Source: Bacilli bacterium
GTDB lineage: Bacteria > Bacillota_I > Bacilli_A > RFN20 > CAG-826
NCBI GenBank assembly: GCA_045114745.1
Contig: JBGULD010000042.1
Coordinates: 1 to 50,928, forward strand
Direction of reading: 5' to 3'
Length of the DNA stretch: 50,928 nucleotides
The notes below the pieces were generated by a model. The model made no database searches, was not told where the DNA came from, and worked only from the letters and a program-made list of their open reading frames with translations. The number at the start of each line of letters is the position of its first letter. The stretch's first letter is position 1. This document shows positions 49,917 through 50,928 of this stretch, piece by piece. The translations under genes were made by a program, and so were the position numbers.

Positions 49917-50672
49917 ATGTTAAAAATCTCGAAAGATAAATTAAAAAAATATCTTAAGATTGTCATCGTCTTATTAGTGGTTGCTTCCATCAGTGTCGGA
50001 CTCTTTTTCTTACTTAGAGCTTTCGGCTTAACTGATGTCAATTTATTAAAAGCCTGGTTAAAGAAAACTGGTGGTTGGGCAGTTATTGCTTATATTCTCT
50101 TAAGAGTGGTCTGCACCATATTCTTATCATTCATGCCAGCATGTAGCATGATATTTGATTTATTATCATTAGCCGCGTTTGATTATCTTCCACCATTTAT
50201 TATCTTTTTGATTTGTTTTGCTTCCGTTGTTTTAACATCGGTGGTCATGGATTTAATCGGAAGATTTGGTGGTAATAAAGCTATCGTGAAGATTCTTGGA
50301 CAAGAAGAATATGACGAAGCCAAAGATTTAGTGCAAGAAAAAGGGATGGTCTATGTCCCAATTATGTATTTATTACCAATATTCCCTGATGACGCAATTT
50401 GTATGGTCAGTGGTGCCACTAAGATGAATTTCTGGGTTCATTTATTAGAAATCATTCTTTGTAGAGGTATTGGCTGTGCTACCGTAATCTTTGGTGTACA
50501 AATTATTCCTAAGGAAGTTAGTTCATTCACTAGCACAAATGTTATTGATTATTTGCGTGTTGGTTTATTAATTATTGCCTACGTAGGGTTATTACTATAT
50601 CTTGCTAGAAAAGTCGACAAATGGCTTTCTGGATATTTAAAGAAGAAAAAAGAAACAAGGGATCCACATTAG
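49917..50672 (+). CDS. VTT/DedA (SNARE-associated) membrane protein
   Basis: IGRFGG, YLLPIFPDDAICMVSG, multiple TM segments. Confidence 0.85.
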   Translation: MLKISKDKLKKYLKIVIVLLVVASISVGLFFLLRAFGLTDVNLLKAWLKKTGGWAVIAYILLRVVCTIFLSFMPACSMIFDLLSLAAFDYLPPFIIFLICFASVVLTSVVMDLIGRFGGNKAIVKILGQEEYDEAKDLVQEKGMVYVPIMYLLPIFPDDAICMVSGATKMNFWVHLLEIILCRGIGCATVIFGVQIIPKEVSSFTSTNVIDYLRVGLLIIAYVGLLLYLARKVDKWLSGYLKKKKETRDPH

Positions 50673-50701
50673 TAGATCCCAAGTTCAGGAGTTCCCTCCT
50701 A

Positions 50702-50780
50702 TTGATTCTATCCTGAAGACGGACTATAATATTTATGGTGTTTGAGATAACAGGCTAGTCCTAACCTGTTACCTTTTTTT
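50702..50780 (+). ncRNA. Promoter plus ~45-nt small RNA ending in a terminator (candidate antitoxin)
   Basis: TTGATT(50702)-17 bp-TATAAT(50725), then taacagg/cctgtta hairpin (50748-50771) and a T run, with no ORF between. Confidence 0.55.
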
Positions 50781-50786
50781 ATTATC

Positions 50787-50849
50787 CTAAATTCGTCTTA
50801 GGAGTAATAAAAACACCAAGAATACCATGAAAGCCACGAGGGCTTCCAT
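50787..50849 (-). CDS. 20-aa hydrophobic peptide MEALVAFMVFLVFLLLLRRI (candidate type I toxin)
   Basis: Single hydrophobic helix with basic C-terminus; purine-rich RBS AGAAG 8 nt upstream, inside a cttct/agaag hairpin. Confidence 0.55.
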   Translation of the reverse strand: MEALVAFMVFLVFLLLLRRI

Positions 50850-50928
50850 AACATTATCTTCTTTCTAGAAGGGGAGGGAATCCTGAAAGCAAAACAATTT
50901 ACTTTCAAGAGAATTTCTTCCTCCTACT

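What the first reader, a model, noticed from the sequence alone, without database searches (positions are those of the whole stretch)
50659..50928. Candidate novel type I toxin-antitoxin cassette: 20-aa hydrophobic peptide, fold-back mRNA and convergent small RNA
Seen: minus-strand ORF 50787-50849, MEALVAFMVFLVFLLLLRRI, whose RBS sits in a cttct-agaa-agaag hairpin. The 5' UTR (ttcagga-ttccctcc, 50887-50873) is complementary over 15 bp with one bulge to a site about 190 nt downstream (50699-50684), just before a gggatc/gatccc hairpin with a T-rich tail. A third tcctgaa copy (50711-50717) offers a competing pairing. On the opposite strand a near-consensus promoter (TTGATT-17-TATAAT) would give a ~45-nt terminated RNA antisense to the 3' UTR. 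Established: short TM peptides, an occluded RBS, 5'-3' fold-back and a convergent antisense RNA characterise hok/sok, aapA/IsoA, fst/RNAII and txpA/RatA. Inference: a type I TA locus; I do not recognise the peptide family. The toxin promoter is not visible in the window.
Basis: partly seen in the sequence, partly recalled or inferred. Interest (0 to 1): 0.75.

Follow-up and report, generated by a model that had tools for sequence, protein, structure and literature searches.

The report
Duplicated candidate type I toxin-antitoxin cassette
A 326-base cassette, present twice in this uncultured gut bacterium, has the full anatomy of a small membrane-toxin gene kept silent by its own RNA folding and a tiny antisense RNA, but nothing yet shows that it is expressed or toxic.

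Summary
The 284-nt minus-strand RNA folds at -109.3 kcal/mol (z -8.8, 0 of 200 shuffles). The 15-bp 5'-3' pairing was reached by 0 of 500 shuffles.

The window is a whole contig that broke inside a repeat. The cassette is about 326 nt and occurs twice in this 993-kb gut or rumen Bacilli MAG. Its missing upstream 43 nt lie on contigs C24 and C3. The copies differ at 13 of 283 positions, and all 3 ORF differences are synonymous. Copy 2 sits between tRNA-Pro and uvrA, a site without the cassette in all 10 same-genus relatives read.

In the variant contigs that cover the plus-strand promoter, changes fall in its spacer and just downstream, never in its hexamers.

No homologue turned up in Rfam, Pfam, NCBIfam, several hundred related genomes, or the genome, metagenome, viral, phage and plasmid collections. 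No RNA run holds the stretch.

Best reading, at about 0.6: a new, very narrowly distributed type I toxin-antitoxin family, with a 20-aa toxin and a roughly 45-nt antisense RNA nested in the toxin's 3' UTR. Expression, toxicity and the toxin promoter remain unshown.

The parts
50885..50928 (-). Start of the toxin transcript leader (AGUAGGAGGAAG...). These are the last 44 nt of the contig and are identical to the ends of contigs C24 and C3. Those contigs carry 43 further shared bases with the still unidentified toxin promoter.
   Evidence: no consensus promoter found in the shared 43 nt
50873..50887 (-). 5' arm of the long-distance pairing (UUCAGGA-UUCCCUCC). The UUCCCUCC part is the arm used in the minimum-free-energy fold.
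50858..50871 (-). CUUCU-AGAA-AGAAG hairpin holding the Shine-Dalgarno-like AGAAAGAAG, 8 nt before the AUG
50787..50849 (-). 20-codon ORF MEALVAFMVFLVFLLLLRRI plus stop: the candidate membrane toxin. The AUG is paired with codons 6-8.
50737..50781 (+). Predicted antisense small RNA of about 45 nt. It has a free 5' tail (GGUGUUUGAGAU), a terminator hairpin and a U7 run, lies wholly inside the toxin 3' UTR and ends 5 nt short of the stop codon.
   Evidence: start site inferred from the -10 box
50702..50730 (+). Promoter of the small RNA, TTGATT-17-TATAAT. The hexamers are invariant; the spacer varies at 50709, 50711 and 50722.
50711..50717 (-). Second UUCAGGA copy in the 3' UTR, a possible competitor for the 3' UCCUGAA
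   Evidence: role inferred
50684..50699 (-). 3' arm of the long-distance pairing (GGAGGGAA-C-UCCUGAA). It can also fold locally as AGGAG-GGAA-CUCCU. Both changes seen here (A>G at 50693 and at 50692) keep pairing as G-U.
50645..50680 (-). Intrinsic terminator of the toxin transcript (GGGAUC...GAUCCC plus a U-rich tail). It marks the right-hand end of the repeat unit and overlaps the last codons and the stop of the convergent VTT/DedA gene.
49917..50672 (+). Convergent neighbour: a 251-aa VTT/DedA-family membrane protein. It is not part of the cassette, but its last 9 or so codons lie inside the repeat.

Best explanation
This is a chromosomal type I toxin-antitoxin-like cassette of a new family, about 326 nt long and present in two copies.

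The proposed working is as follows.

1. A weak, non-consensus promoter just beyond the window makes a minus-strand mRNA of about 280 nt. This step is inferred.
2. The mRNA encodes a 20-residue peptide: a 15-residue hydrophobic core between Glu2 and Arg18-Arg19. If made, it would insert into the membrane. This step is inferred.
3. The full-length mRNA is translationally inert, which the folding shows computationally. The Shine-Dalgarno-like AGAAG sits in a local hairpin. The AUG is paired with codons 6-8. The 5' leader (AGGAG and UUCCCUCC) is clamped to GGAGGGAA-CUCCU, 175-235 nt downstream next to the terminator, in the manner of hok or aapA1 mRNAs.
4. A near-consensus promoter inside the 3' UTR makes a convergent RNA of about 45 nt. 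This RNA is perfectly complementary to the 3' UTR and stops 5 nt short of the stop codon.
5. By analogy with the Bacillus 3'-overlapping pairs (bsrG/SR4, txpA/RatA), the 45-bp duplex would be cut by RNase III and the mRNA then degraded. RNase III, RNase Y and RNase J genes are present in the genome. A refolding effect on the ORF-3' UTR helix is also possible, because the small RNA's tail GGUGUU is identical to the ORF segment that pairs with the same 3' UTR site.
6. When the short-lived small RNA is lost, the stable folded mRNA would be processed or opened and the peptide made. This step is inferred.
For: Anatomy:
- All parts lie at the stated coordinates.
- The RNA is exceptionally structured, z -8.80, 0 of 200 shuffles as stable.
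- The 15-bp 5'-3' helix was reached by 0 of 500 shuffles, and its core has pair probability about 0.9.
- The Shine-Dalgarno-like AGAAG and the AUG are paired with probability 0.74-1.0.

A unit under selection:
- A second copy on contig C40 is 95.4% identical, with 13 differences in 283 nt. Identity stops exactly after the terminator tail and 43 nt upstream of the leader, so the repeat is one promoter-to-terminator unit.
- All 3 ORF differences are third-position and synonymous, P about 0.014-0.028.
- The 79 nt of leader and the 43 upstream nt show 0 differences between the copies.
- Three changes in predicted stems of the minus-strand RNA, at 50693, 50692 and 50661, turn A-U or G-C into G-U and keep the pair.

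Small RNA:
- The promoter matches the consensus at 10 of 12 positions.
- Six variable sites lie in its spacer or just after the -10 box, and none lie in the 12 hexamer positions.
- The A>G change at 50752 keeps the terminator stem as G-U on the plus strand but would give C-A on the minus strand.

Selfish-module behaviour:
- Copy 2 lies between tRNA-Pro and uvrA, which are about 497 nt apart here.
- Of 10 same-genus relatives, 8 have tRNA-Pro roughly 110 nt upstream of uvrA with no cassette. The other 2 have different upstream DNA, also without the cassette.
- Contigs from 4 DNA runs of 4 studies carry the cassette. The DedA-type flank appears in 2 of the runs and the C40-type flank in 3, and no variant falls in the ORF.

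Rarity:
- A genome-wide scan for intergenic hydrophobic ATG ORFs of 15-45 aa listed 7 entries at 5 loci, two of which are these copies.

Machinery:
- RNase III (gene cut by a contig end), RNase Y and RNase J are encoded.

Precedent, from passages read:
- IbsC is a 19-aa type I toxin (PMC8309996).
- SR4 pairs with the 3' end of bsrG mRNA, giving RNase III decay and Shine-Dalgarno sequestration (PMC8309996).
- Anti-SD elements, 5'-3' long-distance interactions and 3'-side antisense RNAs characterise type I families (PMC8594479).
- Type I loci evolve by lineage-specific duplication (PMC2887945).
Against: - There is no evidence of transcription, translation or toxicity.
- The toxin promoter is not recognisable. 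The consensus scan finds none on the right strand in the shared 43 nt. By eye there is only TTGAGA with poorly spaced -10-like words.
- The ribosome-binding site is weak (AGAAAGAAG, no GGAGG). A much stronger AGGAGG stands 11 nt before a TTG that opens a different 36-codon frame.
- The three synonymous changes are also neutral for the predicted RNA fold, being wobble or unpaired. Coding constraint and structural constraint therefore cannot be cleanly separated with three events.
- Only near-identical sequences are available, so there is no real covariation test.
- The small RNA overlaps neither the ORF nor the ribosome-binding site, and it has no above-chance complementarity to the 5' 110 nt: 60 of 300 shuffles pair as well. 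A direct block of translation is thus not evident.
- The hydrophobic core of 15 residues is short for a membrane span.
- No relative was found anywhere, so the family cannot yet be shown to be more than one species' oddity.
Confidence: 0.6

Rival explanations
1. This is a small membrane protein gene with antisense control, but not a toxin. The 20-aa peptide would be a benign accessory or regulatory membrane peptide, for example a modulator of a transporter. The convergent small RNA and the folded mRNA would merely tune its level.
For: The same anatomy fits this reading. Many small membrane proteins are not toxic; I saw only the search listing of the review PMC12648545. Copy 1 abuts a membrane protein gene of the VTT/DedA family.
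Against: A housekeeping accessory peptide would be expected in congeners. It was found in 0 of 11 same-genus genomes and in 0 of 300 other family genomes by peptide search, and in 0 of 400 other genomes of the order by the degenerate pattern with up to 3 mismatches. The two copies sit in unrelated contexts, one of them as an insertion into a site that lacks it in relatives. Triple occlusion of translation start is typical of products that must not be made.
Confidence: 0.15
2. This is a non-coding structured RNA element, a repeated intergenic RNA or small mobile RNA module, whose 20-codon ORF is incidental. The plus-strand promoter would make an antisense regulator of that RNA.
For: The structure is extreme (z -8.8). 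The three ORF changes are all fold-neutral. The ribosome-binding site is weak. The best Rfam alignment, although far below threshold, is to a non-coding Bacteroides sRNA through three shared hairpins: BTnc231, 24.7 bits against a gathering score of 80.4.
Against: Three of three changes are synonymous in just this frame, P about 0.014-0.028, while the alternative 36-codon frame takes 2 amino-acid changes. The ORF encodes one of the very few strongly hydrophobic intergenic peptides in the genome. It has charged residues at both ends and a Shine-Dalgarno-like word at 8 nt. No Rfam family reaches its threshold.
Confidence: 0.15
3. This is a leader or attenuator of a neighbouring gene: the minus-strand unit for uvrA in copy 2, or the plus-strand promoter and terminator for a gene beyond the window.
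For: In copy 2 the unit lies upstream of uvrA and is co-oriented with it.
Against: In copy 1 the same unit runs into the 3' end of a convergent gene, so it leads nothing. Relatives' uvrA genes lack the unit, and the uvrA-proximal 45 or so nt that they share are still present downstream of it here. The plus-strand RNA ends at a strong terminator. What follows differs between the copies: tRNA-Pro with its own TTATCA-17-TATAAT promoter in one, a convergent PreA-like gene in the other.
Confidence: 0.05

Closest known systems
Bacillus subtilis 3'-overlapping type I pairs (bsrG/SR4; also txpA/RatA, bsrE/SR5, yonT/SR6)
   Same: Both are from Gram-positive hosts. Toxin and antitoxin genes are convergent, and the antisense RNA lies on the 3' side of the toxin mRNA. 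The expected action is RNase III cleavage of the duplex, possibly with refolding around the ribosome-binding site. Sources are passages of PMC8309996 and PMC8594479.
   Different: Here the antisense RNA is only about 45 nt, lies wholly inside the mRNA and does not reach the ORF. In the T1TAdb passage these families overlap the mRNA only partially and overlap the ORF. The toxin is 20 aa against 38 for BsrG. There is no similarity in peptide or RNA. This cassette adds a long 5'-3' clamp.
Enterococcus faecalis par (fst/RNAII) and the Fst/Ldr family
   Same: Both have a short hydrophobic toxin, a short convergent antitoxin RNA and a hairpin shared by both transcription units. That RNAII is about 65 nt is recalled.
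   Different: In par, pairing happens outside the overlap, at 5' repeats. Here the small RNA has no above-chance complementarity to the 5' 110 nt: 60 of 300 shuffles pair as well. The toxin transcript has no U-run after the shared hairpin and must read through to a second terminator. No Pfam or NCBIfam toxin model matched at E up to 10.
hok/sok (plasmid R1) and aapA1/IsoA1 (Helicobacter pylori)
   Same: In both, the full-length toxin mRNA is held inert by a 5'-3' long-distance interaction together with Shine-Dalgarno occlusion. hok refolds after 3' processing (passages).
   Different: Those antisense RNAs act at the 5' side or on the ORF, and their hosts are Gram-negative. Here the antisense RNA targets the 3' UTR. 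There is no sequence relation.
ibs/Sib of Escherichia coli
   Same: The toxin length is comparable: IbsC is 19 aa and stays toxic down to 15 residues (passage). The loci are duplicated in the chromosome.
   Different: Sib spans the whole ibs ORF. IbsC lacks the C-terminal positive charges, whereas this peptide ends in RRI. There is no sequence relation.
Rfam RF04180, Bacteroides sRNA BTnc231
   Same: This is the only Rfam alignment with E below 1. It aligns three hairpins of similar spacing over 50745-50884 (-).
   Different: It scores 24.7 bits against a gathering score of 80.4, with almost no shared sequence and a host from another phylum. BTnc231 is an intergenic sRNA validated by Northern blot with no stated function (passage of PMC7366714). 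I treat this as a chance structural resemblance.

Membership tests
[quoted passage not shown] | Small (70 aa or fewer) hydrophobic peptide with a predicted membrane span and charged residues at the C-terminus | tested here: met
   The peptide is 20 aa with mean Kyte-Doolittle hydropathy 2.16. Its 15-residue apolar core lies between E2 and R18-R19. The criteria come from PMC2887945. The span is short, but IbsC at 19 aa is a precedent.
[quoted passage not shown] | An antisense RNA gene with its own promoter and terminator, complementary to the toxin mRNA | tested here: met
   Met at sequence level only. TTGATT-17-TATAAT at 50702-50730, then a hairpin and U7. The hexamers are invariant while the spacer varies. 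Whether the RNA exists was not testable.
[quoted passage not shown] | Toxin mRNA with cis elements that block translation (anti-SD, 5'-3' long-distance interaction, stable fold) | tested here: met
   z -8.80. The Shine-Dalgarno-like word and the AUG are paired with probability 0.74-1.0, and the clamp core with about 0.9. The 15-bp helix was reached by 0 of 500 shuffles. There is no covariation test, because only near-identical copies exist.
[quoted passage not shown] | Both RNAs are expressed; the peptide is toxic when over-produced; the RNA neutralises it | not testable with these tools
   No run on record as RNA holds the stretch. The organism is uncultured.
[quoted passage not shown] | Autonomous module, often duplicated, with patchy lineage-specific distribution | tested here: met
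   There are two copies. One is inserted in a site that lacks it in all 10 congeners read. It was not found in the relatives searched.
Fst/RNAII (par) family | Fst-type peptide, and an antitoxin that pairs with the toxin 5' region through repeats outside the overlap | tested here: not met
   No Pfam or NCBIfam match at E up to 10; these models have low power on 20 aa. No Rfam antitoxin family matched. Small RNA against the 5' 110 nt: 60 of 300 shuffles pair as well.
TxpA/RatA and BsrE-G-H families | Homologous toxin peptide; a 3' antisense RNA that partially overlaps the mRNA including the ORF | tested here: not met
   No family match. Here the small RNA is fully nested and ends 5 nt short of the stop codon. 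The organisation criteria come from PMC8594479.
Ibs/Sib family | Ibs-type peptide; an antisense RNA spanning the entire ORF | tested here: not met
   No family match. The antisense RNA does not touch the ORF.
Hok/Sok and AapA/IsoA families | Homologous peptide; an antisense RNA at the 5' side or on the ORF; a 5'-3' fold-back | tested here: not met
   The fold-back is present. However, the antisense RNA lies on the 3' side and no peptide or RNA homology was found.

The most novel reading that the evidence does not exclude
This would be a previously unseen, minimal type I toxin-antitoxin family, with a 20-aa toxin and an antitoxin of only about 45 nt. It combines the 3'-side antisense layout of Gram-positive systems with a hok/aapA-style 5'-3' clamp. 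It propagates as a 326-nt promoter-to-terminator cassette in a reduced-genome (about 1 Mb) uncultured gut Bacillus. The hypervariable 5' tail of the small RNA, which holds 7 of the 13 differences between the copies at or next to it (50733-50747), would give each copy its own recognition site.
Probability: 0.3. Interest if true: 0.6.

Novelty: new variant of a known kind. Interest (0 to 1): 0.45.

Why it matters
Type I systems are known from a few dozen families, almost all found in cultured Proteobacteria and Firmicutes, and they are invisible to routine annotation.

If this one is real, it shows that even genomes of about 1 Mb from uncultured gut Bacilli carry and duplicate such modules. It would add a layout not among those listed in the T1TAdb passage I read: an antisense RNA fully nested in the 3' UTR, clear of the ORF, combined with a 5'-3' clamp. 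It would also give one of the smallest toxin and antitoxin pairs, convenient for studying how a 3' UTR duplex can silence a distant start codon.

The cassette also explains why the assembly broke at four contig ends. It allows C24 to be joined to C42 and C3 to C40.

Tried and rejected
Searches for relatives, all negative:
- BLAST of the 279-nt cassette against 60 related genomes found only chance matches of 19-29 nt at E 0.005-0.009. I read those loci and found nothing.
- Peptide search in 300 other family genomes gave one chance hit at E 0.14.
- Covariance model R1, built on the 5' 144 nt, was run on 150 other family genomes. It gave 4 weak hits at E 0.009-0.66, all inside genes or without a small hydrophobic ORF.
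- The degenerate full-peptide pattern with up to 3 mismatches matched 0 of 400 other genomes of the order.
- In genome contigs, the 13-aa pattern gave 0 hits and the 23-nt leader word gave 0. The 10-aa core pattern gave 14 loci, all chance, in unrelated phyla.
- In metagenome contigs, the 8-aa N-terminal pattern gave 24 loci, all chance.
- In viral contigs there were 0 and 2 chance hits.
- Against phages there was 1 chance 37-nt hit, and against plasmids none.
- The exact peptide is not in the 15-billion-protein collection.
- Three peptide words were absent from 8 of the 9 supplementary files of PMC2887945; file 3 was not searched.
- Earlier findings of this scan: nothing by sequence, and one unrelated note for the genome.

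Tools that would not take 20 aa: the search for related loci and the search for homologous proteins.

Expression: no RNA holder is listed for the stretch.

Other lines tried:
- Rfam: only the sub-threshold BTnc231 alignment.
- The orthologous VTT/DedA loci of relatives have no cassette. One of them, G002 (locus L012), has a different orphan small-ORF insert. I do not count it as a homologue.
- The 25-codon TTG frame after the 3' GGAGG diverges between the copies and I rejected it as coding.
- The 16S 3' end is not in the MAG, so the anti-SD sequence could not be read from this organism.
- No target-site duplication or terminal inverted repeat was seen by eye at the unit's ends.

Literature: searches for 'type I toxin-antitoxin' with 'rumen', and for type I toxin or antisense RNA with Tenericutes, Erysipelotrichaceae, Mollicutes or Acholeplasma, listed nothing on such loci in this group.
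Full report
**What is there**

The window is an entire contig (C42) of a 993-kb, 63-contig, 76.8%-complete MAG with 36% G+C. The nearest public relatives of a neighbouring gene are rumen or gut 'Bacilli bacterium' and 'uncultured Erysipelotrichaceae' MAGs.

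- the 20-codon minus-strand ORF;
- the CUUCU/AGAAG hairpin over the ribosome-binding word;
- the two 15/16-nt complementary arms, and the third tcctgaa copy;
- the minus-strand terminator and the plus-strand TTGATT-17-TATAAT promoter;
- the plus-strand hairpin with seven T that would end an RNA of about 45 nt.

**Is it more than chance?**

The 284-nt minus-strand RNA (50928..50645) folds at -109.3 kcal/mol, against -66.1 +/- 4.9 for 200 dinucleotide shuffles. That is z -8.80, and no shuffle was as stable.

A Watson-Crick helix of 15 bp with at most one bulge, between the first 80 and the last 84 nt, was reached by 0 of 500 shuffles; the maximum was 13. A looser duplex-energy test was less extreme, with 10 of 1000 shuffles at least as good.

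In the ensemble:
- the core UUCCCUCC:GGAGGGAA has pair probability about 0.9;
- the AGAAG of the ribosome-binding word has 0.87-1.0;
- the AUG has 0.74-1.0.

The 3' CUCCU pairs with the AGGAG at the very 5' end rather than with UUCAGGA, and UUCAGGA closes a local 13-bp hairpin. Moving the assumed start site from the first base to nine or twelve bases further in keeps the core clamp.

**The window ends inside a repeat**

The cassette occurs a second time at the start of contig C40, 95.4% identical over 283 nt. The last 44 nt of the window are identical to the ends of contigs C24 and C3. Those two share 43 further bases and are then unrelated.

The repeat is therefore about 326 nt. It begins 43 nt upstream of the leader and ends exactly after the U-rich tail of the minus-strand terminator, so it is one promoter-to-terminator unit. 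Four contig ends are explained by it.

Synteny resolves the joins.
- Of 10 same-genus relatives, 8 have tRNA-Pro roughly 110 nt upstream of uvrA, and none of the 10 has the cassette there.
- Here tRNA-Pro ends C3 and uvrA starts C40.
- So copy 2 is C3-C40, an insertion that stretches this spacer to about 497 nt. Copy 1 is C24-C42, lying between a PreA-like gene (DHO_dh plus 4Fe-4S) and the VTT/DedA gene.

**Signs of selection**

The two copies differ at 13 of 283 positions.
- None lies in the 79-nt leader, and the 43 upstream bases are also identical.
- Three lie in the ORF. All are third-position and synonymous, with P 0.014-0.028 depending on the transition bias.
- The same changes alter two residues of the overlapping 36-codon TTG frame.
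- All three are also neutral for the predicted fold, being a wobble, an unpaired base and a loop. Coding and structural constraint are therefore not cleanly separable.
- Seven differences cluster at 50733-50747, the start-proximal bases and 5' tail of the predicted small RNA.

Contigs of four DNA runs from four studies were laid on the window. One run shares its study with the probable source sample.
- They carry the cassette with both kinds of flank.
- They show no variant in the ORF. In the leader they show three: 50853, 50855 and 50897.
- Their variation is again concentrated at 50733-50755.
- In the promoter the variable sites are 50709, 50711 and 50722 in the spacer and 50733-50735 after the -10 box. 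None of the 12 hexamer positions varies.
- Changes in predicted minus-strand stems at 50693, 50692 and 50661 all keep the pair as G-U. The change at 50752 keeps the hairpin only on the plus strand.

These are few events among near-identical sequences. They are consistent with function but are not a covariation proof.

**What it is not**

- No Rfam family comes near its threshold. The best is BTnc231 at 24.7 bits against 80.4.
- Pfam and NCBIfam give nothing for the peptide at E up to 10, though these models have low power on 20 residues.
- The unit is not a leader of a neighbouring gene. In copy 1 it runs into the end of a convergent gene, and in copy 2 the relatives' uvrA lacks it.
- Downstream of the plus-strand terminator the two copies have unrelated DNA.
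- The small RNA has no above-chance complementarity to the toxin 5' region, with 60 of 300 shuffles pairing as well. The par-type mode of contact is therefore not met.

**Distribution**

I found no relative beyond strain-level variants. This holds for 60 relatives by BLAST, 300 family genomes by peptide, 150 by covariance model and 400 genomes of the order by degenerate pattern with three mismatches. It also holds for the genome, metagenome, viral, phage and plasmid collections. The exact peptide is absent from a collection of 15 billion proteins, and its words are absent from the searchable supplements of the 2010 type I toxin survey.

Searches by short peptide or exact word are weak, so this means 'not found', not 'absent'.

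**Most likely mechanism**

I read the cassette as a type I toxin-antitoxin-like module, with confidence about 0.6.

Shown by computation:
- a translationally occluded, clamped mRNA;
- a separate convergent promoter-terminator unit, antisense to its 3' UTR.

Inferred:
- that both RNAs are made;
- that the peptide inserts into the membrane and is harmful;
- that the 45-bp duplex is cut by RNase III and the mRNA then degraded, as passages in PMC8309996 describe for bsrG/SR4.

RNase III, Y and J genes are present.

There is one suggestive detail. The small RNA's tail GGUGUU is identical to the ORF segment that, in the fold, pairs with the same AACACC of the 3' UTR. Binding of the small RNA would therefore also remodel the ORF-3' UTR helix.

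The two small RNAs could still cross-pair with the other copy's mRNA: about -70 against about -81 kcal/mol for the cognate pair.

The weak points are the unrecognised toxin promoter, the weak ribosome-binding word and the lack of any expression data.

**Comparison with known systems**

According to the T1TAdb passage (PMC8594479):
- Gram-positive families place the antisense RNA on the 3' side with partial overlap, usually including the ORF;
- fully nested antisense RNAs are listed only for Gram-negative families, where they lie at the 5' side or over the ORF.

This cassette combines a 3'-side position, full nesting, no contact with the ORF, and a hok/aapA-like 5'-3' clamp. It works most like bsrG/SR4 or txpA/RatA, but it is a member of none of the families tested. 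The peptide length has a precedent in IbsC at 19 aa, and duplication of loci is typical of the class (PMC2887945).

I read passages only of these three papers. T1TAdb itself could not be queried.

**Verdict**

It is a candidate new family with a variant layout of a known kind of system, confined so far to one uncultured species and lacking expression or toxicity data. Interest is moderate, at 0.45.

Noticed in passing
L012 2218-2470 (genome G002, same genus), minus strand: At the same place, the 3' end of the orthologous VTT/DedA gene, this relative has a different insert of about 330 nt. It carries a convergent 34-36-aa hydrophobic ORF (MLMEIVIIFLTLFLFCLVEIIINKCWLFGSVLFLFL) behind GGAGG, with a CCCTC word just upstream and a plus-strand terminator beyond it. 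Its fold is only mildly stable (z -2.4). In 300 family genomes the only matches outside G002 itself were weak chance-level ones (39 genomes, E 0.009-0.94). It could be another orphan type I-like locus at a shared hot spot.
   Followed up: partly
window 50645-50672: The last 9 or so codons of the VTT/DedA gene (..KKETRDPH, stop at 50670-50672) lie inside the repeat unit, on the opposite strand of the toxin terminator. The cassette therefore supplies this gene's C-terminal tail and stop codon. Relatives end differently (..KKRKEK, ..KKKKQNTTK, ..KLKKK).
   Followed up: partly
contig ends C24:33488-33531, C3:21197-21240, C40:1-283, window 50646-50928: The assembly broke on the 326-nt repeat. Synteny in relatives indicates the joins C3-C40 (tRNA-Pro, cassette, uvrA) and, by elimination, C24-C42.
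   Followed up: yes
genome contig C22:873-941 (-): There is another intergenic 22-aa hydrophobic ORF (MRIIKKAIILIMIAALLLAMLS) behind a strong GGAGG. Contigs C25:1722-1784 and C27:3420-3485 hold two weaker candidates. None resembles the cassette.
   Followed up: no
L007 300-1239 (contig C3, upstream of tRNA-Pro): A 164-aa AAA_33 P-loop kinase-like protein, with a weak sub-threshold Zeta_toxin match (E 5e-4, 20.0 bits against a cut-off of 22.3), follows a 116-aa protein that matches no family. The kinase-like gene is conserved next to tRNA-Pro in several congeners.
   Followed up: no
L011, L013, L014 about 2180-2590 (downstream of VTT/DedA in relatives): A conserved non-coding stretch of about 300 nt (..ATTCGGTATTTTTGAT.. 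to ..GGTGCT..CAAACTTTTTATTT) precedes a lipoprotein-like gene. It looks like a structured leader or riboswitch candidate and was not examined.
   Followed up: no
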